From: an uncultured Elusimicrobia bacterium
GTDB lineage: Bacteria; Elusimicrobiota; Endomicrobiia; DTEH01
Length of the DNA: 64,000 nucleotides
NCBI GenBank assembly: GCA_964561135.1
Contig: CAZLOB010000038.1
Location: 6,427-70,426 of the forward strand
Direction: 5' to 3'
In this document: positions 925 through 57,751 of the stretch, piece after piece
Numbering within the stretch: position 1 is the stretch's first letter
Layout: every line of letters starts with the position of its first letter
Notes under the pieces: model-generated
The model's database searches: none
What the model was told of the DNA's origin: nothing
The model's input: the letters and a program-made list of their open reading frames with translations, nothing else
Program-made: the position numbers and the translations under genes

Positions 925-937
925 AACCAAAAAAATT

Positions 938-1012
938 TGGCTCCAACGGGATTTGAACCCGTGCTTGCGGCTTGAGAGACCGCTGACCTGAACCAGGCTA
1001 GTCGATGGAGCC
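938..1012 (-). tRNA. tRNA-Glu (anticodon CUC)
   Basis: The reverse complement folds as a cloverleaf. Acceptor stem GGCTCCA/TGGAGCC with discriminator A; D stem GACT/GGTC; anticodon stem GCGGT/GCCGC with loop CTCTCAA (anticodon CTC); T arm ACGGG-TTCAAAT-CCCGT. No encoded CCA. Confidence 0.8.
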
Positions 1013-1120
1013 ATATAATGTTTGTAAGTTTAATTTATTAAAATCATTAAACAAATTCAAGACTTAACTAAAAAACATCATTATGTTGAAAAATTATTTC
1101 AAAATTTTATAAAATTAAAT

Positions 1121-3013
1121 TTGTCAAAAATGATAATAATGAAAAAGTTTAAAAAATTTTCTTTTCTTATTCTTATTATTTATTTAATATTTTTTTCTCC
1201 CATTTTTTCGATATATCTTTTTGGTGTTGTTCCTCATATCACTGGAGAATTTATAAAAGGCCAACCAAGAAGTAGAGTTAAAATCTGCAATGAAGCAAAT
1301 ATTCTTCGTAAAAAGGGAGCCCCTTCTATAGAAATTGCGAGAACTTTAGGTACCATTGGCACAAAAAAAATTGCTGTTATTATTGTTGACTTCTCAGATC
1401 AAGAATTTACTGAATTACCCCAATCAAACATAACTTTTCAAAAGCTAAAAGAATATTACAATGAAGTCTCATATGGCAAATTACAACTTGATATTACATT
1501 TTTCCATCAAAATGGTTCAACAAAAATAATAACAGGACAAGAAATACCATTTAGAATGCCAAAACCCATGGAATATTATGGTCGAGATACAGATAATACC
1601 TTAGCACAATTAGTGAAAGATGCAATCAAAGCTACAAATGGTACTGTAGACAAAAGATCTTATGATTATGTGATGGTATTACATGCTGGATATGGTAACG
1701 AGTCAACAAATAATAAAGAAGATATTTGGTCTGTATATGTTGATTGGGATGACGCTATAAATGGTTTTACAGACGGTACTATTGTCCCTGAAAAAGAGCT
1801 TTATGCTTCTGCAGTAGGTGTCGTTTGTCATGAATTTGGACATCAGTTAGGATTGCCAGATTTGTATTATGGTCAAGAAAGTATTGTAGGTAGATGGTGT
1901 CTAATGGATTATGGTGTTTGGAATGGAGAACCACAAGGTTCATCACCAGCTCACTTGTCTGCTTGGTGTAAACAATTTTTAGGTTGGCTTGAAGTTGAAA
2001 CCGTTACTTCTACTAAAAAGAACATATCGTTGCCTTATATAGAAAGAAATTCTTCAGCAATAAAAATCTTAATTAAAACAGCTAGTAATCCACAAAAAGA
2101 ATATTTTTTATTAGAGTATAGAAGAAAAATTGGATTTGATGCATTCCTCCCAGCAGAAGGATTATTAATTTGGTATATTGATGATAACATTGCTTCTGAC
2201 GAAAATAGGCTAAAAGATAACAATATAAATTCAGGGGAACCGCATTATGGAGTTGATCTAATTGAAGCAGATATGACACCAGCTGGAAAAGACATTGAAA
2301 ATGAAGGTGATCCTTTTCCTGGAGATAAAAATATTACACAGTTCTTCCCACAAGAATATAACATCACAGCTTATAATGGAAATCCTATTAACATGATTAT
2401 ATCTGATATTGAGTTAGACAAAAATAATGCTTATTTTAACATAATTTGTTTTTCAGGTTTATATGTTAAAGTAACTCGCTTAGATGCAATTCCATTAAAC
2501 AATGTTAGAATTGATTTATATAAATATAAAGAAAATATTTCTACCTATACTTATACTTCATTGCAAGGAAGTACAGCAATAGAATTATCTACAGGTATTT
2601 GGAGCGTAACTTATTCATTACAAAATTACACAACTTATTATGAAACTATAGAAATTTTTCCTGAACAACTTATAATAAAAAAAGTCATTTTAAGATACGA
2701 TCCAAGTTTAGTTTTATCAAAAAATGAGTTTATTGTTGGTAATAACTATCTCGATTATACTACACTGAACAAAATTGTATTTAGATATAATGTTGAAGGG
2801 CCAACTGATGTGAAAATTATCGTTTATACTATTTCAGGTAATGTTATTAAAACTTTTGAAAAATATCACGAAAAAGAAGGTTATTATGAAGAAATTTGGG
2901 ATAATGTAAAAGACAAAAATGGTAATGAGTTACCAAGTGGAGTGTATTTTGTAGTCTTTAAGTCGAAGTATTTCAGTAAAGTAGAAAAATTTATTGTAAA
3001 ACAAAAATTATGA
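1121..3013 (+). CDS. Secreted zinc metalloprotease, M6 (immune-inhibitor-A)-like, with C-terminal T9SS/FlgD-Ig-like sorting domain
   Basis: N-terminal signal peptide (MKKFKKFSFLILIIYLIFFSPIFS). Zinc motif VVCHEFGHQLGLPDLYY (HExxHxxGxxD). The C-terminal ~75 aa (KIIVYTISGNVIKTFEKYHEKEGYYEEIWDNVKDKNGNELPSGVYFVVFKS...) matches the T9SS type-A CTD pattern. Confidence 0.6.
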   Translation: MSKMIIMKKFKKFSFLILIIYLIFFSPIFSIYLFGVVPHITGEFIKGQPRSRVKICNEANILRKKGAPSIEIARTLGTIGTKKIAVIIVDFSDQEFTELPQSNITFQKLKEYYNEVSYGKLQLDITFFHQNGSTKIITGQEIPFRMPKPMEYYGRDTDNTLAQLVKDAIKATNGTVDKRSYDYVMVLHAGYGNESTNNKEDIWSVYVDWDDAINGFTDGTIVPEKELYASAVGVVCHEFGHQLGLPDLYYGQESIVGRWCLMDYGVWNGEPQGSSPAHLSAWCKQFLGWLEVETVTSTKKNISLPYIERNSSAIKILIKTASNPQKEYFLLEYRRKIGFDAFLPAEGLLIWYIDDNIASDENRLKDNNINSGEPHYGVDLIEADMTPAGKDIENEGDPFPGDKNITQFFPQEYNITAYNGNPINMIISDIELDKNNAYFNIICFSGLYVKVTRLDAIPLNNVRIDLYKYKENISTYTYTSLQGSTAIELSTGIWSVTYSLQNYTTYYETIEIFPEQLIIKKVILRYDPSLVLSKNEFIVGNNYLDYTTLNKIVFRYNVEGPTDVKIIVYTISGNVIKTFEKYHEKEGYYEEIWDNVKDKNGNELPSGVYFVVFKSKYFSKVEKFIVKQKL

Positions 3014-3888
3014 AAAAATTTATTTATCTAATTTTTATTATTCTTACAATGTTAACATTCTCTTTATCTAATGAAATTAATAATGTGTCAATATCCAACA
3101 GCTATATGCTATCTTCTGAGCAATCTGTTACAGACAATCATAGTTTCAACGCAATCTCAAATCCTGCAATGTTAGCATTCAACTCACAAATTGGGTATTT
3201 ATTAGAATACAACAAACTATTTTATTATGCTCAATCAAATTTTGACAGTATTGGTTTCCTAATTGGTAAAAAAGCTTTTGGTATAGTTATCAACAATTTC
3301 TCATCAGGAAAAATAAGTATAAAAGATATTGAAGGAATTAATACAGGTCAAACTATAGATTATTCTTTAACATCATTTAATTTTGCAGCTGCAATAAGAT
3401 TTACTTTTAATAAATCTGGTAACCTTGCCGGAGGAATTACAGGAATTGTAAACTGGGAAAGAATAAACGTCGAAACAATTACCTATGATGCTAACTTTGG
3501 ACTAGTTTATAACTACGAAAATAAAAACGCTTGTCTTCGATTAGGAACAGTAATCAAAAACATATCTTCAAAAAATACAGCTACCTATCACTGTGGTGTA
3601 TCGATTAAAAGTGGTTCTTTATTTATTATTTGTGGTTATGAAAATAAATTTATAAATAGTTTAAATGAGAAAATAAAATTAGCTGCTATGCTTGATCTAC
3701 CAGTTTTTTATTCTATAATCAAAAATATATCTTTTGGAGTAGGTTATCTTTTCAGTACACAAAATTATATACAACAATTAACATTTGGTTTAAGTATAAA
3801 TTTCAAAATTGTAAGCTTGAACTATTCTTTTGCAACTCATCAATATTTAGGTTCTTCACAAAATTTTCGAATTGGAATAGAACTATAA
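3010..3888 (+). CDS. Outer-membrane beta-barrel protein, possibly PorP/SprF- or PorV-like T9SS-associated
   Basis: Signal peptide and an N-terminal NPA motif (SFNAISNPAMLAF). Alternating hydrophobic beta-strand pattern. Sits immediately downstream of, and overlapping by 4 nt, a CTD-bearing cargo gene. Confidence 0.35.
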   Translation: MKKFIYLIFIILTMLTFSLSNEINNVSISNSYMLSSEQSVTDNHSFNAISNPAMLAFNSQIGYLLEYNKLFYYAQSNFDSIGFLIGKKAFGIVINNFSSGKISIKDIEGINTGQTIDYSLTSFNFAAAIRFTFNKSGNLAGGITGIVNWERINVETITYDANFGLVYNYENKNACLRLGTVIKNISSKNTATYHCGVSIKSGSLFIICGYENKFINSLNEKIKLAAMLDLPVFYSIIKNISFGVGYLFSTQNYIQQLTFGLSINFKIVSLNYSFATHQYLGSSQNFRIGIEL

Positions 3889-4974
3889 ATACTTTCTTGT
3901 ATACAACACAGTACCTATTAGAAAAAATATGATATTAGGTATCCAAACACTTAAATAAGGATTAATTACCCCTGTTTCTCCCAATGTACGCAAAAAGGAT
4001 AAAAATGTCCAATAAACTATAAATACTAATATTACATAAACAAGACTATTTAACTTACCATGCTGAGAAGAAGAAATCTGACCCAATGCAATAGCAAAAA
4101 AAACTATAATAAAATTAAGAAAAGCAATCGAATATCTAAAACTTATCTCTGTAAGAATTCTGTTTGAAGATTCTCCTCTAAATTTACAAATTTTTACTAC
4201 TTGTTTTAATTGATTTAAATTCAGTTGATCAAGTTGCATTGTAGAAAAATTATATTTAAAGTTTTCAACATCAACTGGAAGCAAATATCTATAATTTTTT
4301 ACAATCTTTTCTACGACTGAAGCATTATTGTAGAATTGTTGTATTATAGCATTAGAAAGAATTAGCGAAAGATTATCTTTTATGCCTTCGTTAGAAAAAA
4401 TTTGAAATTTAATTCTCCCATTTTGATATTGCTGCATCAAAAATGAATAAACTTTGTTATTGGTTTTATCATATTTATCTATAAAAATATAAGTCAAAAG
4501 ATCTCCATGATAAAAATAATAAAATAAATCTTTAAGAAAATCTTTCTCGAATTTTTCTTTTTTTATCTTAGTATAAAAAATTTCTTGTGCTTTATAAAAA
4601 TTTTTTGTTGCAACTTTATCATTTACAAAAAATGAAAAAATACTAAAAAGTAACCCCATAACCAACCAAGTTACAAAAAATTGTTTTGTGTCAATCCCCA
4701 AAGTTTTAATCGCTATAATTTCTCTATAATATGTAAAAAAAGAAACGGATAATACAGTTGATAACATTAACGAAATTGGAAGTGTTTGAACGAACCAAAG
4801 AGAAACATGTAATGACAGAAAATTTATTACATCAACGAATTTTGGCTTATGCAAAATAAAATCACCAAATCGCCAAAAAACTTCTGATAAAGCAAAAACA
4901 AATATAAAAAATACCTGTACAGGAAAAAAAATAGATAAAAACTCTTTTAAAAAATATATTTGTAACTTTTTCAT
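3883..4974 (-). CDS. LptF/LptG-family (YjgP/YjgQ) LPS export permease
   Basis: ~360 aa. N-terminal KKLQIYFLKEFLSIFF... TM bundle, then a large periplasmic domain and C-terminal TMs; matches the LptF/G family pattern. Second gene of a tandem pair. Confidence 0.5.
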   Translation of the reverse strand: MKKLQIYFLKEFLSIFFPVQVFFIFVFALSEVFWRFGDFILHKPKFVDVINFLSLHVSLWFVQTLPISLMLSTVLSVSFFTYYREIIAIKTLGIDTKQFFVTWLVMGLLFSIFSFFVNDKVATKNFYKAQEIFYTKIKKEKFEKDFLKDLFYYFYHGDLLTYIFIDKYDKTNNKVYSFLMQQYQNGRIKFQIFSNEGIKDNLSLILSNAIIQQFYNNASVVEKIVKNYRYLLPVDVENFKYNFSTMQLDQLNLNQLKQVVKICKFRGESSNRILTEISFRYSIAFLNFIIVFFAIALGQISSSQHGKLNSLVYVILVFIVYWTFLSFLRTLGETGVINPYLSVWIPNIIFFLIGTVLYTRKYL

Positions 4975-4976: not shown

Positions 4977-6080
4977 TTACAAAATTATAGACAAAATAAA
5001 AGACAAAATTAGTAAAAATATATTTGGCAAGTACATAATAAACGCTATAGTAACAAAATTCGGAGAAATATTAGCATTTTCAACAAAAGACATACTTCCA
5101 ATAAGCAAAAAATAATACACACAAATAATAACAATTGCAAAAACAAAACTAAGTGATTTAGCATTTCTTTTAATCCTAGATCCAACTACAATTCCTATAA
5201 TCGTAAACACAACTATACTTAAAGATATTGTATGCCTTAAAAAATATTCGGCCAAAATAAATTTTTTATAATTTATAATGGTTGTTTTATAAAATTCTTG
5301 TAGAAGTTCTTTATTAGACAATTCACGCAAATTTAAAGATTCTGTAACAATTTTTTTAATTTGGCTGTTAGGTATTACAAATTTATAACTATCAAAATTA
5401 ATGTATGTCAACTGAGATGGAAGAGTTTTATCAAAAGTTAAAATTTCTCCTTGGTGCAAATTAAATATGATGTCCACATTACTATTTATAAAAACTTCAG
5501 CAACTTTGGCAAATATTGTTTGGATTATATCTTTTTCAATTGGACTAAAAATATATACGTTATATAAGACAAACTCATTCTTTTTTTGTTCAACAAATTT
5601 TTGATATACAATTTTTTTATTTTGCAAAACAACACTATAACTATTAAAACTCACATAGGGTTTTGATATAACATAATTTATGAACGTATACCTAAATTGT
5701 TTATAACTTTTTGGAACATAAACTGTATTAAAATAAAAGATAATTATTGTAAGCAAAACTGATAAAATAACTAAATTTTTAAAATAAAAACTTTTTTTAA
5801 CACCCATTGTTTGTAAAATTACACTTTCACTCGTCTCATTTAACATAGAAAAAGTAAACAGCACAGATATCAATAAACTTATCGGTATAGTCAATGAAAA
5901 AATAGAAGGTAAAAGATATAAACAAAGCTTTATACTTGTTACAAATTCTGTTTTGTAAGTTAGTAGAGAACTAATTAATTGATATATGTAACTTAATAAA
6001 AACAACAAAGAAGTTACACCAAAATAAATAAAAAAATAAGAAAAAAATGTTTTCAAAATATATTTATTGATTATTTTCAT
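4977..6080 (-). CDS. LptF/LptG-family (YjgP/YjgQ) LPS export permease
   Basis: MKIINKYILKTFFSYFFIYFGVTSLLFLLSYIYQLISSLL...LPSIFSLTIPISLLISVLFTFSMLNETSESVILQTMGV: characteristic permease N-terminus. Paired with the adjacent paralog. Confidence 0.5.
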   Translation of the reverse strand: MKIINKYILKTFFSYFFIYFGVTSLLFLLSYIYQLISSLLTYKTEFVTSIKLCLYLLPSIFSLTIPISLLISVLFTFSMLNETSESVILQTMGVKKSFYFKNLVILSVLLTIIIFYFNTVYVPKSYKQFRYTFINYVISKPYVSFNSYSVVLQNKKIVYQKFVEQKKNEFVLYNVYIFSPIEKDIIQTIFAKVAEVFINSNVDIIFNLHQGEILTFDKTLPSQLTYINFDSYKFVIPNSQIKKIVTESLNLRELSNKELLQEFYKTTIINYKKFILAEYFLRHTISLSIVVFTIIGIVVGSRIKRNAKSLSFVFAIVIICVYYFLLIGSMSFVENANISPNFVTIAFIMYLPNIFLLILSFILSIIL

Positions 6081-6192: not shown

Positions 6193-9100
6193 ATGTTAAA
6201 AGGAAAGATTTTCTTATTCATATTTATAATACTTTCCTACAATATTTTATTTTCACAAGAAAACGTAGAGGAAAACAAAATTAAATTTGACCAAAAAAAA
6301 TGGAATCGAATAAGAGAATGTATAGAAAACAATCTCCCATTATACGAGGAAGAAAAATCAACAAAAGTAGTTACAAAACCTTCTGTTGCTACTCCAACAA
6401 CTATAGAGTTTATTGAAGGAACACAACTTACTATTAATGGACGGAAACTTATTGGTATGGAAATCACATCAGTCAACTATCCATACAAACCTAATTATAA
6501 TAGAACAGATATAAATATGCGACAAGAATTACAAGTATCAGTGAAAGGAAAAGTAGGAAAGAATATAGATGTAAATATAGACATAGATGACACACAACCT
6601 GATAAACGAGATATATCTATTATATATCGTGGTGAAGGAGTAGACGTAACGCCTGGAGCTGTTGGGTACAAAGCAAAGCCTGGAGCTTTTATCCAAGAAA
6701 TAGCTTTTGGAGATATTCAACTTAGCCTACCAAACACAGAATTTGTAGGTTATTCAAGACAAGTTTTTGGGATAAAAGCTATTGTTCAATATGATCGTGC
6801 ACGAATGTATTTAATCGCTTCACAATCAAAAGGTAATTTTGAAACAAAAAGATTTACAGGAAAAACTGAGTTTGAACGAAAAATTATTTCTGACACATCG
6901 TATATACGAAGAAAATACTACAAAATTTTATTCGGTAATCATAAAATTAAAAGAGAAACAGTCAAAGTTTACTTAGATACTTTAGATCCGCAACGAGATC
7001 CTGCAACACTTATTGAACTTACAGCACAAGCTTTTCATATATCAACTTTTACTTATTCTGGTAAATTTGAACAGTTAGCTTTAGGGAAAGATTATGTTAT
7101 CGATTATTCCTTAGGTATTATAACTTTTTATAGACACATACAACCGAATTATATAATTGCAATTGACTACTTTGATGAGAACTCTGGTCTTACTTTAAGA
7201 GAACTTGCTAATACAACAAATTATATCCTAATAAAAGATAAAGATGAGACACCAAATATTACAACCGAATTGTTAAACAGATATTATATTGGTAGGACAA
7301 ACATTATCCGTGATGATGGCACAGGTAATTTTTTGTTAAGAATTATCGACAAAAGTGGCCGTATTTTAAATCCTGAAATAGATAAAATTCAACCTGACGA
7401 CAAAGACATCCCTGTTTATAAAACAGGAAATGTTGGTGATATTAAAGTTGATTTTGAAAACGGAATCATATATTTTGACCAAGAAAAACCTTTTGCAGAG
7501 GATTGTTATTATAAAACTCCAATAAGTAGATATGATATTCTTGTGGAGTATAGATATAAGTCTAAAACATATTTTTTAAAACCATTTATTGTACCTTATT
7601 CAGAACGTGTTGTTGTTGATGGAAAACTTCTACAACGTAATGTTGACTATTGGTTAGATTATGATTCTGGAATACTTTCCTTTTTGCGTGAAGAAGACAT
7701 AAAAGAAAATAGTATAATTGAAGTAAGTTATGAATACAGTATGTTAGGATTACAAGGTGGTGAAACAATATTAGGAAGTAGGTTAGAATTACCTTTGTCA
7801 AACAAATTATTTATAGGTGGAAGCTGGATCGGCAATCTACCTTCAAAAGGTTCTTCAGTGCCTGATATAAGAACAACGCCTTCATCATTGCAAATCTGGG
7901 AAACAGATGCAAGAATCACTTCTGTTAAAATTCCTCTTTTACCTTTACAGATAAATTCTATCTCTGCTGAATATGCTGAAAACGAAAAAAATCCTAATAT
8001 ATGGGACAAAGCCGTTGTTGAAAACATGGAAGGGATAACTTTAGAAGATAGTGTTTCAACATATAGACATATGTGGTATTATAGTTCTTGTAGTGATATA
8101 TATATTCCTGGAAGGTATGACGATAAAACTGATAAACTTGTTGAAGGAGAATTAAACTGGGAAAACGAAGATGTTCCTGTACAAGAAATAAACCCAAATA
8201 GACAAACTACTTACGATAAACAACAAGTGTTGAAAATAAATTATAATTTGTATTCATCACAAGAAGTTGCTATGGCATATTTATTCTCAAAATATGGTCT
8301 TGATTTCTCAAAAAAGTTATATTTAGAAATGGAGTATTATAGCAATGCTGGTGGTGGCGAGTTATATCTTGATCTTGGTCATCCTAGTGAAGACATTGAT
8401 GGTGACGGAGTTTTAGATACGGAAGACAAAAATTCTAACGGTAGATTAGATTTTAATGAAGATACAGGTTTTGAGTATAACAGAGATAACAAGATATACT
8501 ATATAGGCGGAAGTAATGGTAAACTGGACACTGAAGACATTGATGGTGATGGTATACTAAATACAAATGATATTCTCGCTGGGACATACAAAATTTCTGA
8601 TTTAAATTTTACTGGATGGGTATCAACCATCGTTCCTATATCAATAACAGACAAAACAATGTGGACATCTATAAAACAAGTGAGATTAAGAATAAAAGGA
8701 AAAGGAAAAAATGGTGTTGTGAAAATAGCAAAGATTTCTGTTGTAGGAAATAAGTTTGAAATTCATACTCCTCAAAATACAGAAATCTATGCTGTCAACA
8801 ACGAAAATGATCCTACTTATAAAAAACTTTCAGAACTTGAAGAATATACTTCTATATACGGTACACAATATAAAGAGAGACTAGTTGAACAAGCATTAGC
8901 TGTAAAATATAATCTTGACCCAACTTATTCTTCATCAGTTATAACTTTATCATTTTCTCGTGGACAAGATTTTACTTATCACCGTAAATTTAATTTCTTT
9001 TTATTTAATAAAACTGGCAATGAAATTGTATTTAAATTACGTATCTATACGGACCAAAATAACTATCTTGAGTTTTCTACACAAACTATAAGATGGACAA

Positions 9101-11346
9101 ATGAATGGAAAAAATTTAGTATAGAACAAATAGATATAAATAATGACCATGTACCTGATAAATGGGAAATACTAGAAAATTCGGCTTCAGGTGGATCTTG
9201 CCATACTTACGGGACGCCAAACTTGCGCGGTATAACAAAAATTGAGTTTATTATTGAAAACCCACTTAATTCTTCTCAAGAAGGAATTCTTTATATTAAT
9301 GATGTATACCTTTCTGAAAGTTGGAAACGAAAAGGTATCGCAAGAAAAATAGAAACAAGTTTGTCTATTCCGGGATGGATAAACTTTGGTGGGTATAGCC
9401 GTTCTGTAGACAGAAAGTTTGAAACGTTTACCAGTGCTATAACAAACCAAGATAATATATCAGTGAACAGTTTCTTTGATTTTATAAAATTAAAATTTAT
9501 GCCGATAAGTTTTAAAGGAAAACAAGAAAAAACAGTCACTCCGTCAGCATTGAAATCAGGTGAACTTGTTTCAACTCTTGAAGAAGGTAAAAGAATTTAT
9601 ACTGAAGGAAGTATAAACACTTCCATAAATGTCAAACATCTACCCCAAATCGGACTAACATATTCAAAATCTATTAGTTCAGCAACAGCGTTAAATCGTA
9701 CAGATATAAAAGATAACTATCAAACTACAATAAGCTACTACAATCCATTAAAAAAATATATACCATTAACTAGTATATCCTTATCTTATGGTGAAGAAAA
9801 ATTATTGTTATACCCATGGGAAGTAGGGTCTTCCACTCCACCAATCATGGATAATACAAAAAATATAAGAATACATTTACCATTTGAATTTTGGAATAAA
9901 CTGAGTTTAGATGCAAGATTTTCTACAAAAAATATATTTTCTGAAAATAGAATATTTTATAAAAAACCCGCTGAAGAGTTTATAATACCAGAACTTGACT
10001 CTAAAACAGATATTTTTGACTACTACACAAAACTTACTTTTTTTACCCTTTATAATTTACAAAAAACATACCAGTTGTATTACACAACAAATTCTATAGT
10101 TACAGATCGATACGAAAAAAGAAATGAATATGCTACCGAATTAAATTCTTCAATAAATTTATTAAAGTTTTTCTCACCAAACATTGGGTACAGAATGAAT
10201 ATTTACGAAGATTTCAACTTTCCTGTTTCCGACAAAAAGGATATAACACGGAACGCATCTGGTAATTTCTCAGTAAATTTTATGCCTAAAGATGTACTAA
10301 ACATTAAACCTATCCAGACACTGCGATTGTATTATTCTTTTAACATAACTGCCGGTGATAGATACGAAAAAATACCTAAAAACGAAAAATATATAGATCT
10401 TTATAATTTTAAAAACATTGATTTGTTTTGGTACAAAACCGAAGTTTCTACAATTACAGAGCTAAGAAGGAATATGTTTGAACGAAAAGAACAAAGAATT
10501 ACAAGTAGTTGGAAATTATTTGAAGGTCTTTCATTAAAAGGTAATCTAAGCTTTCTTGCGAAAACAGACATAAATCTCACTTATTTTGATTCTGTTGAAG
10601 AAAAGGAGGAAACCTTATCAAAATCTATCGTTTATACAAAAATGTGGCCTGATTTAACCTCTACTTTATACGATATAGAAAATATAATAAATCTCTTTGT
10701 TAAACAAAACAAGATAAAAAATACTAGATTGGATTTGTCATACTCATACAAAATAACCGAAACTAAAAAAGTAAATCTTGAACAAAATATAAAACATAAA
10801 GAAGTTCTAAGCTTTAGTTTATTTGACGACTATCAAATTGTTTCAAGTTATGAAAGAAATTATTTAGATACCTACAGTTTTATTCATTCTTTAAAAACTC
10901 TTATGTCATTTACAGATATAATTGGATTCCAAATAAGTTTCCCCTTTTTCGGACAAAGATTAACACCAAAATATGAGTTTAGAAAAGATTACGCTGAAGA
11001 TGCTCGTAAATTACCAACTAAAAATATAACTACTCATTCACTAACTCTAACTTATTACGCTGACATTACTCCTCAACAAGGAATAAAATTGTTTGGCAAA
11101 ACTATCCCATTGCAAAACAGATTAAGAATAAATTCTAACTTATCATATACACGAAAAGAAAGTCCTATTGATATTACACATAATAACACGGACAACTTCT
11201 CTTTTTCTGCACGTGGTGATTACGATGTGTCAAAATATATTAACCTCACTGTTGAATTAGCAACAAATGTCAATATAAACCGTGTAGTAAAAACAGAAAC
11301 AAACTATAGGTTTTCTTTAAAAGGGCAAGTTATCATAAGATTCTAA
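6193..11346 (+). CDS. Giant (1717 aa) secreted outer-membrane protein with thrombospondin-type-3-like Ca-binding repeats and a C-terminal beta-barrel signature. Candidate SprA/Sov-like T9SS translocon or novel OM protein.
   Basis: Signal peptide MLKGKIFLFIFIILSYNILFSQ. Aspartate-rich repeats DIDGDGVLDTEDKNSNGRLDFNEDTG and DTEDIDGDGILNTNDI. The terminal sequence ...NYRFSLKGQVIIRF ends in Phe, as is typical of OM beta-barrels. Confidence 0.5.
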   Translation: MLKGKIFLFIFIILSYNILFSQENVEENKIKFDQKKWNRIRECIENNLPLYEEEKSTKVVTKPSVATPTTIEFIEGTQLTINGRKLIGMEITSVNYPYKPNYNRTDINMRQELQVSVKGKVGKNIDVNIDIDDTQPDKRDISIIYRGEGVDVTPGAVGYKAKPGAFIQEIAFGDIQLSLPNTEFVGYSRQVFGIKAIVQYDRARMYLIASQSKGNFETKRFTGKTEFERKIISDTSYIRRKYYKILFGNHKIKRETVKVYLDTLDPQRDPATLIELTAQAFHISTFTYSGKFEQLALGKDYVIDYSLGIITFYRHIQPNYIIAIDYFDENSGLTLRELANTTNYILIKDKDETPNITTELLNRYYIGRTNIIRDDGTGNFLLRIIDKSGRILNPEIDKIQPDDKDIPVYKTGNVGDIKVDFENGIIYFDQEKPFAEDCYYKTPISRYDILVEYRYKSKTYFLKPFIVPYSERVVVDGKLLQRNVDYWLDYDSGILSFLREEDIKENSIIEVSYEYSMLGLQGGETILGSRLELPLSNKLFIGGSWIGNLPSKGSSVPDIRTTPSSLQIWETDARITSVKIPLLPLQINSISAEYAENEKNPNIWDKAVVENMEGITLEDSVSTYRHMWYYSSCSDIYIPGRYDDKTDKLVEGELNWENEDVPVQEINPNRQTTYDKQQVLKINYNLYSSQEVAMAYLFSKYGLDFSKKLYLEMEYYSNAGGGELYLDLGHPSEDIDGDGVLDTEDKNSNGRLDFNEDTGFEYNRDNKIYYIGGSNGKLDTEDIDGDGILNTNDILAGTYKISDLNFTGWVSTIVPISITDKTMWTSIKQVRLRIKGKGKNGVVKIAKISVVGNKFEIHTPQNTEIYAVNNENDPTYKKLSELEEYTSIYGTQYKERLVEQALAVKYNLDPTYSSSVITLSFSRGQDFTYHRKFNFFLFNKTGNEIVFKLRIYTDQNNYLEFSTQTIRWTNEWKKFSIEQIDINNDHVPDKWEILENSASGGSCHTYGTPNLRGITKIEFIIENPLNSSQEGILYINDVYLSESWKRKGIARKIETSLSIPGWINFGGYSRSVDRKFETFTSAITNQDNISVNSFFDFIKLKFMPISFKGKQEKTVTPSALKSGELVSTLEEGKRIYTEGSINTSINVKHLPQIGLTYSKSISSATALNRTDIKDNYQTTISYYNPLKKYIPLTSISLSYGEEKLLLYPWEVGSSTPPIMDNTKNIRIHLPFEFWNKLSLDARFSTKNIFSENRIFYKKPAEEFIIPELDSKTDIFDYYTKLTFFTLYNLQKTYQLYYTTNSIVTDRYEKRNEYATELNSSINLLKFFSPNIGYRMNIYEDFNFPVSDKKDITRNASGNFSVNFMPKDVLNIKPIQTLRLYYSFNITAGDRYEKIPKNEKYIDLYNFKNIDLFWYKTEVSTITELRRNMFERKEQRITSSWKLFEGLSLKGNLSFLAKTDINLTYFDSVEEKEETLSKSIVYTKMWPDLTSTLYDIENIINLFVKQNKIKNTRLDLSYSYKITETKKVNLEQNIKHKEVLSFSLFDDYQIVSSYERNYLDTYSFIHSLKTLMSFTDIIGFQISFPFFGQRLTPKYEFRKDYAEDARKLPTKNITTHSLTLTYYADITPQQGIKLFGKTIPLQNRLRINSNLSYTRKESPIDITHNNTDNFSFSARGDYDVSKYINLTVELATNVNINRVVKTETNYRFSLKGQVIIRF

Positions 11347-30926: not shown

Positions 30927-30999
30927 GGGGTGGTAGTTCAGTTGGGAGAACATCCGCTTGGCGTGCGGAAGGTCGGGGGTTCAACTCCCCTCCACTCCA
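30927..30999 (+). tRNA. tRNA-Ala (anticodon GGC)
   Basis: Acceptor GGGGTGG/CCACTCC with a G3:U70 wobble (the Ala identity element). D arm GTTC-AGTTGGGA-GAAC; anticodon stem TCCGC/GCGGA with loop TTGGCGT; T arm GGGGG-TTCAACT-CCCCT; discriminator A. Confidence 0.85.
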
Positions 31000-31231: not shown

Positions 31232-32173
31232 TTACTTTACAAATTCGAAAACTAAAGAAATCCTGTGAATATAACCTAACTCTTCACCAAAATATGTAAC
31301 CGCATAATCTAAAGAAGATCTAACACCAATAGCCGAGATTTTTTCCCACGAAGTTTCTTTACCTATTTCTGTTTTTACTCCAACTCCGAAACACCATCCT
31401 TTTTGAAGATCAACATTGTCTATTTGGTTATATCCAACACGAACAAAATATTTGTCTTGATATATATATTCTGCACCTGTATAAAACTTAATATTTGCAT
31501 CTTGTGGTTTTTCAATATCTAACCCAATAGATATATTATTTTTAGGTTTATATCCAGCACCAAATCTTATACTGAAAGGCAAGTTGTTTACTACATCCGA
31601 AACAATTATTTGTGTCCCTAAATTCTGCACATTAAGACCAAAAGAAAATTTTTCTATTAAAAACAATCCTGAAATATCAGCTGCGAAACCGTTTGCATTA
31701 TATTGACCATATTTTTGTAGAATACTTTTAACACTAATACCAAGGTTTAAATTTTTTGTAAAACTTCTCGCAAAAGTTAATACAATAGCAGCGTTGTATA
31801 TATCTTGTGCGTTTTCAATAAGACCACCGTTCTCATCACGAAATTCAAACCCACCACCAAAAGACAAGTAGTTCACAGCAACACCTACTGATTGTTTACC
31901 GAAAGGATATACAAAACCTAAGTAAGTACTATTTATTCCTTCAAACCATTGTAGATACGAAATAAATAATTCTGGATAAAGAACCAGAGTTGTCCCTGCA
32001 GGATTAAAATATATACTATTAACATCATCTGATATCCCAACGAACGCATTTCCCATACCAGCAGGTCTGCTACCAGGTGTAATTTTTAAAAACAATGCTG
32101 TTGAAGAACTTTTGTTATCTCCAGCAAAAAGAAAATAAACAAAAATAAGAATTATAATTAAGTATTTCTTCAT
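31232..32173 (-). CDS. Outer-membrane beta-barrel protein (PorV/PorP-SprF/FadL-like), downstream of giant T9SS-CTD cargo
   Basis: Internal start MKKYLIIILIFVYFLFAG avoids overlap with the upstream gene. Conserved N-terminal block PGSRPAGMGNAFVGISDDVNSIYFNPAGT. Terminal ...SLVFEFVK. Confidence 0.4.
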   Translation of the reverse strand: MKKYLIIILIFVYFLFAGDNKSSSTALFLKITPGSRPAGMGNAFVGISDDVNSIYFNPAGTTLVLYPELFISYLQWFEGINSTYLGFVYPFGKQSVGVAVNYLSFGGGFEFRDENGGLIENAQDIYNAAIVLTFARSFTKNLNLGISVKSILQKYGQYNANGFAADISGLFLIEKFSFGLNVQNLGTQIIVSDVVNNLPFSIRFGAGYKPKNNISIGLDIEKPQDANIKFYTGAEYIYQDKYFVRVGYNQIDNVDLQKGWCFGVGVKTEIGKETSWEKISAIGVRSSLDYAVTYFGEELGYIHRISLVFEFVK

Positions 32174-32192
32174 ACATTTTATTTTTATAATT

Positions 32193-35100
32193 TTATTTTT
32201 TAATAACAACTTGTTTTTTAGTAACAACATATTTCTTTCCTGACATTTCTTCAACTATAATTTTGCAAACATATACACCACTACCAACTTTTTGTTTTGC
32301 TTGGTTATCACATAACCATTCATATTGTTTATTTTCACCAGCAGAAGGATCAAGTTCTTCTTCTTTTACAAGTTCACCTAAAATGTTATAAATTCTTAAA
32401 GTAACTTTTTTTGCTGGATTTAATAATGAATATCTTAAAGTCACTTTACCAATTGAAGATGGATTAGGAAAAGTATACACACTATCTTTAAAAACTTCCT
32501 CTGCTGTAATAATATTTATGAAAAATTTCGATATATAAGTTGGCGAGGTGTTACCTGCGTTATCAACCAATGTTATATTTATTCTATATTCTCCATTAAT
32601 ATTCTGCTCGGGAAATGATAACAAAATAAGATAAGTAGTTGCGCTAATCTGTGTTAGTGATTTTATTGTTGAAACTTCTTTACCATCGGGACGATAAAGT
32701 CTAACATTTTGTGCTGAAAGATTTACTCCTGAACCACCTGTTTCTGTAAAAATTATTTGAATAGAACTAACTGCAACAGTAAATTTAGCGCCATCTTGTG
32801 GCCAAACAGATATAACTATTGGTGATGAAGTATCAGTTGCATATAGCTCTTGTAATTTCTTAAAGTTCACAGTAACAGAGGAAACAAGTGTGAGATCAAA
32901 ATCTATAACTTTTGCAAAAAAAGTCCTTGTTCCAGGTATGTTGCCAGTGTATACTGCTTTCACTTGACCATTAACATCTGTATAACTTGATAAAATAATA
33001 AACATATCATCTTGTGGTTTACTATCAACATATATTAAAACTTGTTTTTGTCCGATAGAAGGTATAGATGAAGAAATGATATTTCCGTATTGATCTTTAA
33101 GTGTCACCGTTATAATCACAGAACTTCCTATTAAAACATCATACGCAGTTGATTCTATTGTTGAGACAGTAGGTGACGGTTTCCCAGCAATAAGATCACT
33201 ACCTGGTAAAAACATAACAGCTGCTGTCGATAAAATTGTTTGGTTATCTGTTATATTATAAGCAGTGATAAATTTTAATTCTGCTTTTGTAGATGACAAC
33301 GTAGCAAAAGTTTGTCCTAAACTATTTGTTTTATCCTGTGGTTGAATAATTATATTCTGGGAACCAGTTACTGAAATTGACGCATCTTTATTAGCAACGG
33401 GTTGATTTGCAACATCTTTTAATGTTATAACAACATTTATTGTTGAACCAACAACAGCTTCATAATATTTTGTATAACTATCAATAATAGTCACACTTGA
33501 GAAAAATACACTTACTGCCCTTGTTATCCAAAACGTTTGTGATGCAGATTGTAATCCAGGATAAAAAACTGTAATGTTTTGTACGCCTGCTTCATTATCT
33601 CTGTATCTAAAACGCGCTTCTCCTAACACCATATTTACAGAATTACCTATCTCTACATTCGCTGTTGAACTTATAAAAGCATAATCTGAAGATGTTGTCT
33701 CTAAATAAACAATTCCTTCAATATCAACATCTTTATTTCCTTTTTCATCCTGTGCTTGGACAATAATTATTTGTGATGAAGACCCAGTAAGCAATTCCTG
33801 CCCAGCAGTAATAAATACAAGTTTTGTTGCAATAATATTATCAACTTGGAAACTCCCTGTTTGAACTGTTAAACCTACACCGTCTTCATCTTCAGGTGTA
33901 ATACGTATAGCTGTGGACACATCTTTATTGGGAAGGTCTTTTGTTGAATCCCAAATGAATGTATGTTCTTCACCTGATAAAGAAGCAAGTAAGTTTTCTG
34001 TTGGTTCTGAAGCGATCCATCTTGTAGCTGGTTTCCAATTACCATCTGTATCACGAAATTCTACTTTTATTTTACAATAATTATACGGCTCAGGTTTATC
34101 ATCTTCATCTATCAACCAATACTTTATTGTTACCAACCCTGTTTGTTCAGTAGATGGTGTTTCAATGACAACTTTTGGTGGTGTCCCTCTTACAACAAAT
34201 GTCTTAATTTCTGTGGCTTGTCCTGACGCTTCGTTTATTGATAAAACTACTGGTAAAGAAGTAGAATATATGTTATATGAATACGTTGCAATAGTTATAC
34301 TATATGGATTTTCAGCATAGAACCTATATTTTATTCTACCACCACTCCTACCAATACTACCAAACGGATAATTTATATTACTTAACACAAAATGGTATAT
34401 CTCACCATTAGTATAATCGCCATCATTACCCACACCTACTTTAAGTTGCATACCAAATTGTTCTGTTGTTTGGAATATAAGGTCATCGTTCAAATCAACC
34501 CATACTTGGACAGTAGTCGGCGGGTTACCATTACTTGCTAACCCAAGGTCAAAATATTTCACCTGAAATTCAACAGAACCAAATCTATCTATATAATTTG
34601 GTTCAACACCATCATCTACAAAACCACTAAAACCGCTATATACAATAGTAGGATCCCAATAAATTATGCTGTTAACCAAATCATCAGGTAAAAATGGTCT
34701 TGTATAATCTCTAAATGTTAAAACAGAATTTTTTGCACGAACATTAAAACATGCAGAAATTGTTGCTGTGTTTGTGTCAAGAACAATATTATCAAAAGTA
34801 TGTATGATATTGTTTGCAGTAATAAATGTAGTATATGTGGTAGCGGGTTGCAAGTTAGCAATATAAATTTTGTTTGTATTATTGAGTGGTGAACTATTAA
34901 ATGTGAGACCATTTGAATTTAAGAAAGTGAAACTTGTATATTCAATTTTAGTAATAGTTCCACCTAATGATAGTCCGTAATAAAAAAATTCTGTTCCAGA
35001 AACTATGTCATAACTTTTATCTTCAGCAAGTTTTCGCGTTACAATAGTAGGGGCTGCAGGATGACCAACAAATTCTATTGTTGCACCATCTTTGTTTTCA

Positions 35101-44031: not shown

Positions 44032-44060
44032 TATAATTCTGCTATAATTCTACTATATAT

Positions 44061-55714: not shown

Positions 55715-56401
55715 TTACATTCTTACAACATTAACTTTCTTAACCACATCTTTTTCAAAAGAACCTTTTTTGATCCTAATCTTTACTGGAAATTCTCCTT
55801 CTTTAACAGCTCTTACTTTAATCACCAAATAATTTTCTTGAGGTTTCAAATCTCCCTCCCAATAAACCACTCTCTTTCCTTCAGAAGTAACAATTCCCTC
55901 AGGAAGTTCTATTTCAACTTTTGCATTTTTTAACTCTTTTTTAGCAGTAAGCTTTATCCTTATATATCCCCTTTCTTGAAGTAACAAATTATCCCTAATT
56001 TCATAACCTGCCAAATTGTACTCTCCATATGAATATCTTAGGTATGAGTAAGGTTGCACAAAAGTTATTCTATCTTTGTTTAGAAATATCGCAAAAATAA
56101 TTACAAAAATAATCACCATAACAACAGCATATCTTAAAAACAACACACCTAACTTTTTCTCTAACATGCTTTCATAACTTAACTGCCTCAATTTTGAATG
56201 AAGAACATAAGAAAAATTTTCTTTTAATTGAGGAACTTTTAAAAACGACAAATTTTCTTTGATTTTTAAATAATAATCCAATTCTTGCCTACAATCATCA
56301 CATTTTTCTAAATGCTGTTTTAAAAAAACTTCTTGTTGTTGAGTAAGCTCTTTGTCAAGATATTTTTGTATAAGAAACTTTATTTTTTTACATTCTTTCA
56401 T
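55715..56401 (-). CDS. Zinc-binding (ZAS-type) anti-sigma factor, single-pass membrane protein
   Basis: Start MKECKK with a GGAGG SD. HxxxCxxC motif QHLEKCDDCRQE. TM LFLRYAVVMVIIFVIIFAIFL. Periplasmic C-domain. Confidence 0.6.
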   Translation of the reverse strand: MKECKKIKFLIQKYLDKELTQQQEVFLKQHLEKCDDCRQELDYYLKIKENLSFLKVPQLKENFSYVLHSKLRQLSYESMLEKKLGVLFLRYAVVMVIIFVIIFAIFLNKDRITFVQPYSYLRYSYGEYNLAGYEIRDNLLLQERGYIRIKLTAKKELKNAKVEIELPEGIVTSEGKRVVYWEGDLKPQENYLVIKVRAVKEGEFPVKIRIKKGSFEKDVVKKVNVVRM

Positions 56402-56458
56402 TTTCTTCCTCCTTTCCACTATAATAGACAAGAAATCTTTTAAAAATGTTCCCAGAGA

Positions 56459-57751
56459 TTAAAAATATAAACCTATCCCAAAAGAATAGTTTTGTGTTTT
56501 GTAAGAATACAAAGCGTTAGATGAGTCTGATGTTGAATTAGTGTAATTGAAACTAACCTCAAACTGATTTGTTAGTTTTATTCGTAGGGAGCTATAAAAT
56601 GAATTAATTTTATCCTTTCTGTCAACTTTAAATGATTTGTCTATGATATTAGCACCTATTGAAATTGAAACTTTTTTAAATCTTTTTTCTATTCTGCTAT
56701 TGAGAAACAAACTAGTATAGGAATATAAATCTGACTGTGTATTTTTTATCTTATAACCAGCATCTGCTTTTAAAAGACCAATTTTGAAAGATAAGATATA
56801 TTCTGTTGTTACGCCATTTAACAACTTATAATTAGTATCAAGATATTCATCTGTATTACAACCTGCAGAAATTTCTAAAATTAAATCATCTAAATACATT
56901 TCAGTTTTTATCTTTGAAGCAAGATTTCTTAGCAATGGTCTATCTTCAATATAATACCCTCCAGATAGGACCAAATCAATATTAAACTTAGGTATTAATT
57001 CAAACTTTAAACTTCCAAAAAAATTTTTGAAATTATAGTTATTATATTTCAAATAATTTTTTAAAACTGAACTTAAAGAAACACTAACAGTCTCATCAAA
57101 AAATAAAACTGAAACATAAGTTGAGTATGAAGAATCGCTTAAACCTAATAACTCATAATACATTTCTGGAACATAGTTTATATTTGTTTCGTATCCATAG
57201 CTTCCCTGTAGATATATCACAACATTTTTAGCAACATATTTTCTGTAATCAATTCCAAATTTTTCTAACACATCTTGTGCTTTAAGTAAGTTTATAGAGT
57301 AAGGATAATTTTTTTGCAGAACTTTATATTTTTCAATTGCGGCTTTTTTATCCTTTAATTTCAAATAAGAAACAATCATAAGATACAAACTTTGATCATA
57401 AATAAACCTATCAGTATGTGTTTTTTCTAAAAATCCAATAGCTTCTTTGTATTTTTTAAGTTTAAATTTTGTCACACCCAAATTATAGAATAAACTTGAC
57501 GAAGAATAACCGCAATAATAAGATTTTTCAAAATACTCTTCTGCTAAAGTATAATTCCCAATTTTAAAATAACAAATGCCCAAATAATATCCTATCTTAG
57601 GATCTTCCTCTATTTTGCTTTTCTTAGAAGAAAGAATTCGAATAGCTTCTTCATATCTTTGCGATTTTATCAAACCTTCTATATAAGAAGAATCATCTTG
57701 GCTAGAAAACAAATAAGAAACAAATACCAAAAAAAACATCAAAACTTTCAT
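56459..57751 (-). CDS. TPR-repeat N-domain fused to C-terminal outer-membrane beta-barrel
   Basis: Signal peptide. TPR-like repeats (AIRIL...YYLGICYFKIGNYTLAEEYFEKS...AIGFLEK). C-terminal alternating pattern ending in ...NYSFGIGLYF (terminal Phe). Confidence 0.5.
   Translation of the reverse strand: MKVLMFFLVFVSYLFSSQDDSSYIEGLIKSQRYEEAIRILSSKKSKIEEDPKIGYYLGICYFKIGNYTLAEEYFEKSYYCGYSSSSLFYNLGVTKFKLKKYKEAIGFLEKTHTDRFIYDQSLYLMIVSYLKLKDKKAAIEKYKVLQKNYPYSINLLKAQDVLEKFGIDYRKYVAKNVVIYLQGSYGYETNINYVPEMYYELLGLSDSSYSTYVSVLFFDETVSVSLSSVLKNYLKYNNYNFKNFFGSLKFELIPKFNIDLVLSGGYYIEDRPLLRNLASKIKTEMYLDDLILEISAGCNTDEYLDTNYKLLNGVTTEYILSFKIGLLKADAGYKIKNTQSDLYSYTSLFLNSRIEKRFKKVSISIGANIIDKSFKVDRKDKINSFYSSLRIKLTNQFEVSFNYTNSTSDSSNALYSYKTQNYSFGIGLYF

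What the first reader, a model, noticed from the sequence alone, without database searches (positions are those of the whole stretch)
6193..11346. 1717-aa outer-membrane protein with thrombospondin-type Ca-binding repeats and terminal Phe: candidate giant beta-barrel (SprA/Sov-like?)
The protein has a signal peptide, Asp-rich DxDxDGxxD repeats and a C-terminus ending ...KGQVIIRF, the OM beta-barrel targeting signature. The window contains at least two T9SS-CTD cargo proteins, so a T9SS translocon must exist. SprA/Sov is the only known barrel of comparable size, although canonical SprA is ~2400 aa. The gene is divergently transcribed from an lptF/lptG pair. The alternatives are a novel giant OM protein or an adhesin.
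Basis: inference. Interest (0 to 1): 0.6.

Follow-up and report, generated by a model that had tools for sequence, protein, structure and literature searches.

The report
Compact SprA-like secretion barrel in Elusimicrobiota
This 1717-residue outer-membrane protein is a slimmed-down relative of SprA, the giant pore of the type 9 protein secretion system, and it is conserved throughout Elusimicrobiota, a phylum in which that system has not been described.

Summary
The ORF at 6193..11346 (+) is real. It has a signal-peptide-like N-terminus, two exact DxDxDGxxD loops plus one variant, and a family-invariant terminal Phe. A family profile hits F. johnsoniae SprA (6H3I) at E = 2e-29 in three collinear blocks. 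Profile–profile alignment to bona fide SprA proteins is end-to-end (E = 9e-178). Two high-confidence AlphaFold segments (pLDDT 87 and 83) each find only SprA chains as strong Foldseek matches (E = 1e-49 and 6e-36).

It is not a canonical SprA. It scores 77 bits against the 200-bit TIGR04189 cutoff and is about 600–700 residues shorter. The missing length is an N-terminal extension of about 160 residues and many small loop trims.

The family is phylum-wide in Elusimicrobiota, with at least 395 GTDB hits. It almost always lies divergent from lptF/lptG. The window also holds a bona fide PorV/PorQ-family barrel and two unrelated proteins that share a T9SS-like C-terminal tag, each followed by a PorV-like gene.

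The most likely function is a T9SS-type translocon. No GldKLMN motor or track was seen in the window, and the rest of the genome could not be checked. I rate it a new variant of a known kind, of moderately high interest.

The parts
6193..11346 (+). Gene for the compact SprA-like outer-membrane translocon (1717 aa)
   Evidence: ORF. TIGR04189 E=4.3e-22, 77 bits. Family profile against PDB SprA 6h3i_A E=1.9e-29. hhalign against bona fide SprA E=9e-178. Foldseek top hits are SprA chains.
6193..6255 (+). Signal-peptide-like N-terminus (aa 1-21; putative cleavage LFS|QEN)
   Evidence: Read from the sequence. Similar N-termini occur across the family. No predictor was run.
6421..6891 (+). Barrel-wall block 1 (aa ~77-233), the most conserved N-terminal SprA-homology region
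   Evidence: Aligns to SprA residues 149-266. Long strands in the AF2 model. Many invariant residues.
6910..7707 (+). Insert domain 1 (aa ~240-505), made of small beta elements and carrying the DYxIDYDxGxxTF motif
   Evidence: Aligns to SprA 437-780. The best TIGR04189 stretch is aa 446-547. DSSP.
7714..7992 (+). Barrel-wall block 2 (aa ~508-600)
   Evidence: Four strands of at least 10 aa in both AF2 models.
8008..9267 (+). Insert domain 2 (aa ~606-1025): beta-sandwich with Asp-rich loops, followed by a jelly-roll (CBM11/agarase-CBM-like) module. Presumed to be part of the cap.
8392..8577 (+). Asp-rich DxDxDG loops (aa 734-795), candidate Ca2+-binding sites
   Evidence: Motif scan. Invariant E733, E744, D745, D757, G759 and D782. 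No Pfam TSP_3 hit. Ca2+ binding is inferred only.
9277..11343 (+). Barrel-wall block 3 (aa 1029-1717): 28 consecutive long beta strands, a helical insert at aa 1259-1297, and the terminal ...VIIRF beta-signal
   Evidence: AF2 pLDDT 87.4. Strand count. Terminal Phe invariant.
4977..6080 (-). lptF, divergent from the SprA-like gene
   Evidence: TIGR04407 at 132.6 bits, below the equivalog cutoff of 230. LptF/LptG family genes lie at position -1 in 54/72 loci and at -2 in 54/67 loci. Pfam LptF_LptG is recorded on the E. proavitum orthologues.
3883..4974 (-). lptG
   Evidence: TIGR04408 at 107.5 bits, below the cutoff of 240. Synteny.
1121..3013 (+). Candidate cargo 1: M6-family metalloprotease (HEFGH at aa 237) with a C-terminal CTD (aa ~548-630; nt 2762-3010)
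   Evidence: TIGR03296 171 bits (cutoff 110.8). TIGR04183 21.9 against 23. FlgD_ig. HEFGH and tail alignment. The family lies near the SprA-like gene in 22 loci.
3010..3888 (+). Possible PorV/PorQ-like barrel, start codon overlapping the stop of the M6 gene (tentative)
   Evidence: NF033709 35.6 bits, E=7e-9, below the cutoff of 90. No Pfam hit. Its profile has no PDB hit, and hhalign to the other PorV gene gives only 71% probability. Conserved in 7 close relatives.
32193..37475 (-). Candidate cargo 2: 1760-aa beta-helix/Big_1 surface protein with a C-terminal CTD (nt ~32196-32471)
   Evidence: Beta_helix, NosD, Big_1 and FlgD_ig. TIGR04183 19.9 against 23. The lineage CTD HMM gives E=2e-8. 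Its orthologue in L083 carries a weak Por_Secre_tail hit.
31232..32254 (-). PorV/PorQ-family outer-membrane carrier candidate, immediately downstream of cargo 2
   Evidence: NF033709 163.6 bits, above the cutoff of 90. Its only PDB hit is F. johnsoniae PorV 6h3i_F, E=8.4e-9. Homologues in Elusimicrobiota are named PorV/PorQ family by NCBI.

Best explanation
[quoted passage not shown] Proposed mechanism, with each step marked as shown or inferred. (1) The protein is exported by Sec and inserted by BAM (inferred from the signal peptide and the invariant C-terminal Phe). (2) It folds into a very large beta-barrel, probably of about 36 strands, built from three sequence blocks (aa ~77-233, ~508-600 and 1029-1717). 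Two insert domains (aa ~240-505 and ~606-1025, the latter with Asp-rich, probably Ca2+-binding loops and a jelly-roll) form a cap. This rests on the structure predictions and SprA homology; barrel closure and topology were not verified. (3) Sec-exported proteins carrying a ~80-residue C-terminal beta-sandwich tag dock in the pore together with loops of a PorV/PorQ-family carrier barrel. In this window those proteins are an active-site-intact M6 metalloprotease and a 1760-aa beta-helix protein. They then leave laterally as cargo-carrier complexes. This step is inferred by analogy with F. johnsoniae (PMC10994853). It is supported here by the co-occurrence of all three component types and by repeated cargo-then-PorV-like gene pairs. 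(4) The energy source is unknown, because no GldLM/GldKN genes were seen in the window. (5) The phylum-wide divergent pairing with lptFG suggests co-regulation with outer-membrane/LPS biogenesis, and possibly LPS-linked anchoring of cargo (speculative).
For: Homology: TIGR04189 E=4.3e-22, and all 28 scanned family members hit it. The family profile matches PDB SprA at E=1.9e-29 in three collinear blocks. hhalign to an alignment containing bona fide SprA (879-1046 bits) gives probability 100%, E=9e-178, 1514 columns to the C-terminal end. A global hhalign shows the length difference is about 160 N-terminal residues plus 535 residues in many small insertions.

Fold: AF2 pLDDT is 87.4 and 83.2. 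In Foldseek the top four hits for each half are SprA chains (E=5.8e-36 and 1e-49), with the next hits at about 1e-6. By DSSP there are 4+4+28=36 strands of at least 10 aa in the three barrel blocks.

Partners: a PorV/PorQ-family protein above the curated cutoff whose only PDB match is PorV. A shared CTD sits on two unrelated proteins. The CTD has PNP/GxY motifs and a conserved Lys near the C-terminus, as described for type A CTDs. It gives weak matches to the CTDs of PorU, a SprA-bound endonuclease, PorZ and gingipain. Cargo-then-PorV-like gene pairs recur in L083 and L084.

Conservation: at least 395 relatives in GTDB genomes, and the best 80 are almost all Elusimicrobiota.
Confidence: 0.75

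Rival explanations
1. The protein is a true SprA homologue by descent but has a different role in Elusimicrobiota. It could be a general outer-membrane biogenesis or LPS-related pore functionally tied to LptFG, and not a CTD-cargo translocon.
For: Divergent lptF/lptG adjacency is the most conserved context (54/72 loci at position -1 and 54/67 at -2), and it holds in E. proavitum at only 30% identity. The downstream neighbours are housekeeping genes (comF-like, gap, pgk). No T9SS motor genes were seen. The protein is below the SprA equivalog cutoff.
Against: No OstA/LptD-like or other LPS-handling domain is detected. The LptD matches are generic barrel hits, about 30 orders of magnitude weaker than SprA in Foldseek. 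PorV-family carriers and CTD-tagged proteins co-occur in the same genome, and the M6-CTD gene sits in the same conserved neighbourhood in 22 loci. Synteny indicates co-regulation, not a shared mechanism.
Confidence: 0.15
2. The protein is a giant surface adhesin or other non-pore OM protein with thrombospondin-type calcium-binding repeats.
For: There are two exact DxDxDGxxD motifs and one variant. A jelly-roll/CBM-like module lies in the middle of the protein.
Against: Pfam TSP_3 gives no hit at E<=1. The Asp-rich block and the jelly-roll align to equivalent parts of SprA itself. About 36 long amphipathic strands and an invariant terminal Phe indicate an integral barrel. There is no repeat architecture typical of adhesins.
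Confidence: 0.02
3. The gene is a recent horizontal acquisition or a decaying remnant of a Bacteroidota T9SS and is non-functional in this lineage.
For: It is much shorter than canonical SprA. No other core T9SS genes are seen nearby.
Against: It is present across classes and orders of Elusimicrobiota, with identities falling to 26-30% while length, dozens of invariant residues and synteny are preserved. It is intact in genome-reduced Endomicrobium lineages. The shortening is spread over many loop trims and is not a truncation. GC content matches the surrounding genome.
Confidence: 0.03

Closest known systems
SprA/Sov, the T9SS outer-membrane translocon (F. johnsoniae SprA, PDB 6H3I/6H3J/8GL6/8GL8; NCBIfam TIGR04189)
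   Same: The two are collinear and homologous from about aa 75 to the last residue. SprA is the best and only strong Foldseek match for both halves. The layout is the same: barrel blocks interrupted by two insert regions, Asp-rich loops at the equivalent position, and a predicted count of 36 long strands against the published 36-strand barrel (PMC10994853). It co-occurs with a PorV-family protein and CTD-tagged proteins.
   Different: It is 1717 aa against 2286-2403 aa. It lacks about 160 N-terminal residues and about 535 residues of loop or insert material spread over many sites. It scores 77 bits against the 200-bit equivalog cutoff, and Pfam SprA_N does not hit. The host phylum is Elusimicrobiota, not Bacteroidota or the FCB group. 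It has conserved divergent synteny with lptFG. Partner subunits (PPI, Plug, SprE, PorD, SkpA) and the GldLM/GldKN energy chain were not identified.
PorV/PorQ carrier barrels and the type-B-CTD/PorP-SprF gene pairing of Bacteroidota
   Same: One window protein passes the PorV/PorQ family model and matches PorV from the SprA complex. Carrier-like genes sit directly downstream of the genes for CTD-tagged proteins (window; L083 and L084). In Bacteroidota, type B substrates leave the translocon on dedicated alternative carrier proteins (PMC10994853).
   Different: Here the paired tags look like type A/FlgD_ig-like CTDs, and the paired barrels are PorV/PorQ-like, not PorP/SprF-like. The second carrier candidate (3010..3888) is only weakly supported.
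Intermediate-length SprA-like proteins of candidate phyla (for example FCPU426; P0086-P0091, 1977-2190 aa, several with fn3 domains)
   Same: These are the nearest non-Elusimicrobiota relatives (E from 1e-36 to 9e-60). P0088 just passes TIGR04189 (224.5 bits). They show a continuum between canonical and compact forms.
   Different: They are longer, some carry fn3 insertions, and they come from different lineages. They were not examined further.

Membership tests
SprA/Sov T9SS translocon (NCBIfam TIGR04189 equivalog) | Whole-protein score at or above the curated cutoff (200 bits) | tested here: not met
   77.3 bits, E=4.3e-22. All 28 family members tested hit the model; the best E-value is 3.6e-58, and per-member bit scores were not reported. 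Control SprA proteins score 879-1046 bits.
SprA/Sov T9SS translocon | Full-length collinear sequence homology to experimentally characterised SprA | tested here: met
   Profile against 6h3i_A gives E=1.9e-29 in three collinear stretches. hhalign against a bona fide SprA alignment gives E=9e-178 over 1514 columns to the C-terminus.
SprA/Sov T9SS translocon | Pfam PF14349 (SprA N-terminal domain) | tested here: not met
   There is no hit at E<=1 for the window protein. About a dozen family members carry a precomputed PF14349 hit, and UniRef names the E. proavitum orthologue accordingly.
SprA/Sov T9SS translocon | Single-chain 36-strand capped beta-barrel with a lateral opening | tested here: inconclusive
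SprA/Sov T9SS translocon | Typical size of about 2100-2500 aa and occurrence in Bacteroidota/FCB | tested here: not met
   The protein is 1717 aa. Relatives are Endomicrobiia/Elusimicrobiota.
Type 9 secretion system (whole system) | PorV-family carrier protein encoded in the genome | tested here: met
   ORF 31232..32254 (-) scores 163.6 bits on NF033709 against a cutoff of 90. Its only PDB hit is PorV.
Type 9 secretion system (whole system) | Substrates with a C-terminal sorting domain (TIGR04183/PF18962) | tested here: inconclusive
   The scores are 21.9 and 19.9 bits against a cutoff of 23, and FlgD_ig scores 26.7 against 27. The tag is shared between unrelated proteins and has CTD-like motifs. 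It gives weak hits to solved CTDs but stronger ones to FlgD Ig domains.
Type 9 secretion system (whole system) | GldLM/PorLM motor and GldKN/PorKN track or ring | not testable with these tools
   None was found among the window ORFs scanned. The remaining window ORFs were judged housekeeping from position or sequence and were not scanned. The rest of the genome and whole relative genomes cannot be fetched, and no query sequences were available.
Type 9 secretion system (whole system) | PorU/PorZ attachment complex, SprE/PorW, Plug and PPI subunits | not tested
   No hits among the window ORFs scanned. A genome-wide search was not possible.
Thrombospondin type 3 repeat (Pfam PF02412) | HMM match to TSP_3 | tested here: not met
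   There is no Pfam hit at E<=1. Only two exact DxDxDGxxD motifs and one variant are present.
BAM-dependent outer-membrane beta-barrel proteins | N-terminal signal peptide and a C-terminal beta-signal ending in an aromatic residue | tested here: met
   The terminal Phe is invariant, with an alternating hydrophobic pattern (...VIIRF / ...LTIQF) in all 40 aligned sequences. The signal-peptide-like N-terminus was read from the sequence.

The most novel reading that the evidence does not exclude
Elusimicrobiota carry an ancient minimal type-9-like export module. It consists of a compact SprA barrel, cargo-specific PorV-like carriers and CTD tags. It would operate without the Bacteroidota GldLM motor and GldJKN/PorKN track, and would be genetically coupled to LPS export (lptFG). 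If so, the translocon-carrier mechanism predates or is independent of gliding machinery. [quoted passage not shown] It would also imply a different way of energising carrier release, or none.
Probability: 0.3. Interest if true: 0.85.

Novelty: new variant of a known kind. Interest (0 to 1): 0.6.

Why it matters
In the papers I could search, the T9SS is described as confined to Bacteroidota or the FCB superphylum. Its translocon is the largest known single-chain outer-membrane barrel.

A phylum-wide version about 30% smaller, in an unrelated phylum, would matter in four ways. It defines a minimal SprA core, useful for structural and mechanistic work. It gives an outgroup for testing whether the translocon evolved from gliding machinery. 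It suggests how Elusimicrobiota, including termite-gut Endomicrobia, display proteases and adhesin-like proteins on their surface. It also flags hundreds of 'hypothetical proteins' for re-annotation.

The conserved lptFG linkage hints at a tie between secretion and LPS biogenesis that has not been explored.

Tried and rejected
- **phmmer against PDB:** the single sequence found nothing. Only the family profile reached SprA.
- **Pfam on the protein:** only a sub-threshold DUF6802 hit, with no TSP_3 and no SprA_N.
- **The look-up of encoding contigs on the identical protein P0001:** nothing on record.
- **Promoter scan of the lptF/sprA-like intergenic region:** not above shuffles.
- **The 2018 SprA structure paper:** not held.
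- **Literature searches linking Elusimicrobia or Endomicrobia with T9SS, SprA, PorV or gliding:** nothing relevant.
- **The weak PorV-like gene at 3010..3888:** it could not be firmed up. Its profile has no PDB hit, and hhalign gives only 71% probability.
- **Idea that the M6-CTD protease plus PorV-like pair is an analogue of the PorU-PorV attachment complex:** considered, but left as speculation for lack of any test.
- **LptD-substitute idea:** considered and judged unlikely, since there is no OstA-like domain and only generic barrel similarity.
Full report
**1. Observation**

The ORF lies exactly at 6193..11346 on the + strand, starts with ATG and encodes 1717 residues. The window is about 29% G+C throughout, so a 5.1-kb open frame is not a chance event. 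The protein has 95 relatives in the large protein database, one of them identical.

The N-terminus (MLKGKIFLFIFIILSYNILFS|QEN) has the n-h-c layout of a Sec signal peptide. This is read from the sequence, since no predictor was available. Exact DxDxDGxxD motifs sit at residues 734 and 782, with a DxNxNG variant at 745. The protein ends ...KGQVIIRF. The terminal Phe and an alternating hydrophobic pattern are conserved in every aligned homologue.

Upstream on the opposite strand are LptF-like and LptG-like genes (4977..6080 and 3883..4974). Pfam's thrombospondin type-3 model gives no hit even at E<=1. The Asp-rich block aligns to the equivalent part of SprA, so it is a feature of the SprA family and not a thrombospondin module.

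**2. Identity by sequence**

The score is only 77 bits against a curated cutoff of 200, and the best stretch is local (aa 446-547). A single-sequence search of PDB sequences found nothing.

A 40-sequence family alignment (A1) used as a profile hits F. johnsoniae SprA (6H3I/6H3J and the 8GL* entries) at E=1.9e-29. The hit comprises three collinear stretches: query 115-227 to SprA 149-266, 310-551 to 437-780, and 772-1280 to 1158-1784.

I then aligned the family profile to an alignment of ten 1977-2286-residue proteins. Three of those are bona fide SprA by TIGR04189 (879-1046 bits). The result is probability 100%, E=9e-178, with 1514 aligned columns running to the last residue of both.

A global hhalign against one bona fide SprA (P0093, 2286 aa) shows where the length difference lies. 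SprA has about 160 extra N-terminal residues. It also has 535 residues spread over many small insertions, the largest being 62 and 60 residues between C-terminal strands. The window protein has only 124 residues of its own insertions. There is no domain-sized deletion, so this is the same architecture with trimmed loops.

All 28 family members scanned hit TIGR04189; the best E-value is 3.6e-58. The tool did not report per-member bit scores.

**3. Identity by structure**

The chain exceeds the 1200-residue limit, so I modelled aa 560-1717 and aa 22-1150, each with a 77-sequence alignment. Both models are confident, with mean pLDDT 87.4 and 83.2.

In Foldseek against the PDB, the top four hits for each half are the four SprA chains. 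The E-values are 5.8e-36 to 2.4e-29 for the C-terminal half and 1e-49 to 1.4e-35 for the N-terminal half. The next hit in each case is around 1e-6, followed by generic TonB-dependent and LptD barrels. TM-scores are modest (0.33-0.48), as expected for partial barrels.

Merging the DSSP strings gives strands of at least 10 residues as follows: 4 in aa 77-200, 4 in aa 525-600 and 28 in aa 1029-1715. That totals 36, the number reported for SprA (PMC10994853). Between these blocks lie two insert regions. The first (aa ~240-505) carries the highly conserved DYxIDYDxGxxTF motif. The second (aa ~606-1025) carries the Asp-rich loops and a jelly-roll with local similarity to CBM11 and agarase CBMs.

**4. 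Distribution and context**

Named relatives are Endomicrobiia/Elusimicrobiota MAGs and Endomicrobium proavitum. NCBI annotates them as 'hypothetical protein', and UniRef names one 'SprA N-terminal domain-containing'. The best 80 are almost all Elusimicrobiota of several classes and orders, with identities down to 27-30%.

I clustered the flanking ORFs of 82 loci. LptF/LptG-family genes occupy position -1 in 54/72 loci and position -2 in 54/67 loci, divergently oriented. This includes E. proavitum at only 30% protein identity. A ComF-like phosphoribosyltransferase follows at +1 in 41/73 loci, and then gap and pgk. A homologue of the window's M6 protease lies just beyond lptFG in 22 loci.

The gene is therefore an ancient, vertically maintained feature of the phylum, embedded among housekeeping and envelope genes.

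**5. Partners in the window**

ORF 31232..32254 (-) passes the PorV/PorQ family model (163.6 bits against a cutoff of 90). Its only PDB match is PorV from the SprA complex (E=8.4e-9). NCBI already names some Elusimicrobiota homologues 'PorV/PorQ family protein'.

That gene lies immediately downstream of a 1760-residue beta-helix/Big_1 protein whose last ~90 residues resemble a T9SS CTD (TIGR04183 19.9 against 23; FlgD_ig 26.7 against 27). The M6 metalloprotease at 1121..3013 has an intact HEFGH site and carries the same kind of tail (21.9 against 23). It is followed, with overlapping stop and start codons, by a weak PorV-like ORF (35.6 bits, E=7e-9). I could not firm up that ORF.

An HMM built only from the tails of M6 orthologues finds the beta-helix protein's tail at E=2e-8. 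The tag is therefore shared by unrelated passengers. The tails show PNP, G..V, W(D/N)G.N..G..V.SG(V/I)Y and a conserved Lys a few residues from the C-terminus. This matches the near-invariant Lys described for type A CTDs.

Against PDB sequences the tail profile is closest to FlgD Ig-like domains. It also aligns, more weakly, to the extreme C-terminal CTDs of PorU, a SprA-bound endonuclease, PorZ and gingipain.

Gene pairs consisting of a CTD-tagged protein followed by a PorV-like barrel recur in a syntenic contig (L083). They occur twice in a distant Elusimicrobiota contig (L084).

No GldK/L/M/N, PorU or other core T9SS genes were found among the window ORFs scanned.

**6. Mechanism**

The best-supported reading (confidence about 0.75) is a T9SS-type translocon. 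The barrel would be exported by Sec and inserted by BAM. CTD-tagged proteins would dock in its lumen against loops of a PorV-family carrier, then leave laterally as cargo-carrier complexes, as shown for F. johnsoniae.

Shown here are the homology, the predicted fold, the co-occurrence of the three component types and the conserved gene pairing. Inferred are the topology, the docking, the lateral exit and any calcium binding. The energy input is unknown.

The main rival (about 0.15) is that the barrel has been put to another envelope function linked to LptFG. The adhesin and remnant readings are effectively excluded by the full-length homology, the strand architecture and phylum-wide conservation.

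**7. Comparison with what is known, and novelty**

The protein works like SprA and is homologous to it, but it fails several membership criteria for canonical SprA: the equivalog score, the Pfam SprA_N domain, size and taxon. I therefore file it as a compact SprA-like subfamily, a new variant of a known kind.

The papers I could search describe the T9SS as confined to Bacteroidota or the FCB group. None connects it with Elusimicrobia. This search covers only the held library. The databases already carry hints, in the form of the UniRef SprA_N name and the PGAP PorV/PorQ names.

The finding bears on a current question. Liu et al. 2025 infer that the T9SS arose within the Bacteroidota gliding machinery. 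A phylum-wide translocon-carrier-CTD set in Elusimicrobiota offers a way to test that inference, especially if the GldLM/GldKN energy chain proves absent.

**8. Verdict**

Interest is 0.6. The decisive missing pieces are a genome-wide census of T9SS components in complete Elusimicrobiota genomes and a full-length or complex structure prediction.

Noticed in passing
window 6193-6270, and the N-termini of homologues P0003, P0017, P0021, P0032, P0038, P0057, P0060, P0063, P0078 and P0079: In many members of the SprA-like family, the predicted signal-peptide cleavage site is followed by Gln (for example LFS|QEN, AQ, SQ). This recalls the Bacteroidetes 'Q-rule', which was reported as specific to that phylum (PMC5837995).
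   Followed up: no
window 41380-42648 (-) and 40736-41365 (-); syntenic in L083 413-2324: A bacterial Clp1-like P-loop protein (PF16575 CLP1_P, 119 bits) lies next to a PhoU_div/DUF47 protein. The pair is conserved in a related contig.
   Followed up: partly
window 55715-58305 (-): A three-gene set: an ECF sigma factor (57751..58305), a 430-aa TPR protein with a signal peptide that ends ...GIGLYF and may carry an OM barrel (56459..57751), and a zf-HC2 anti-sigma factor (55715..56431).
   Followed up: partly
window 29238-30815 (-): A single protein combines GAF, HD-GYP-type HD_5 and PilZ domains. It would be a c-di-GMP phosphodiesterase with a built-in c-di-GMP receptor domain. It lies next to the PorV/cargo pair.
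   Followed up: no
window 54780-55604 (-): A predicted secreted 274-aa protein with a (DV)n run near the N-terminus and a Gln/Tyr-rich tail (…QQYQQDHQQYQQGEMQQ). It has no Pfam or NCBIfam match.
   Followed up: partly
window 43060-44061: About 1 kb upstream of carB has no ORF of 90 aa or more, no Rfam family at gathering threshold and no tRNA. Only short ORFs of 82 aa or less are present.
   Followed up: partly
window 607-1014 (-) and 938-1012 (-): The 135-aa ORF overlaps a tRNA gene on the same strand (Rfam tRNA, 59.8 bits), so it is probably spurious or over-extended. A second tRNA lies at 30927-30999 (+).
   Followed up: partly
P0100, P0101 and P0110; L083 10001-10945; L084 10001-10939 and 14622-15524: The PorV-like barrels of Elusimicrobiota also carry weak or faint hits to PF03687 (UPF0164).
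   Followed up: no
window protein aa 480-516 (nt ~7630-7740); also P0093 and P0088: A weak, sub-threshold match to NF052337 (phage tail tube protein, 6XGR type) recurs at the conserved DYxIDYDxGxxTF region. It is seen in 15 of 28 family members and in bona fide SprA, and it may reflect a shared small beta-sandwich motif.
   Followed up: no
L025 and L029 (loci from GTDB Elusimicrobia MAGs): Two adjacent same-strand ORFs both cluster with the SprA-like family. They could be a split or frameshifted gene, or a tandem duplicate.
   Followed up: no
L084 1257-3323: In a distant Elusimicrobiota contig rich in FlgD_ig-tailed proteins and PorV-like barrels, a 688-aa protein combines Big-like domains, FlgD_ig and an OmpA-family domain. 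This loosely recalls the peptidoglycan-binding T9SS accessory protein PorE.
   Followed up: no
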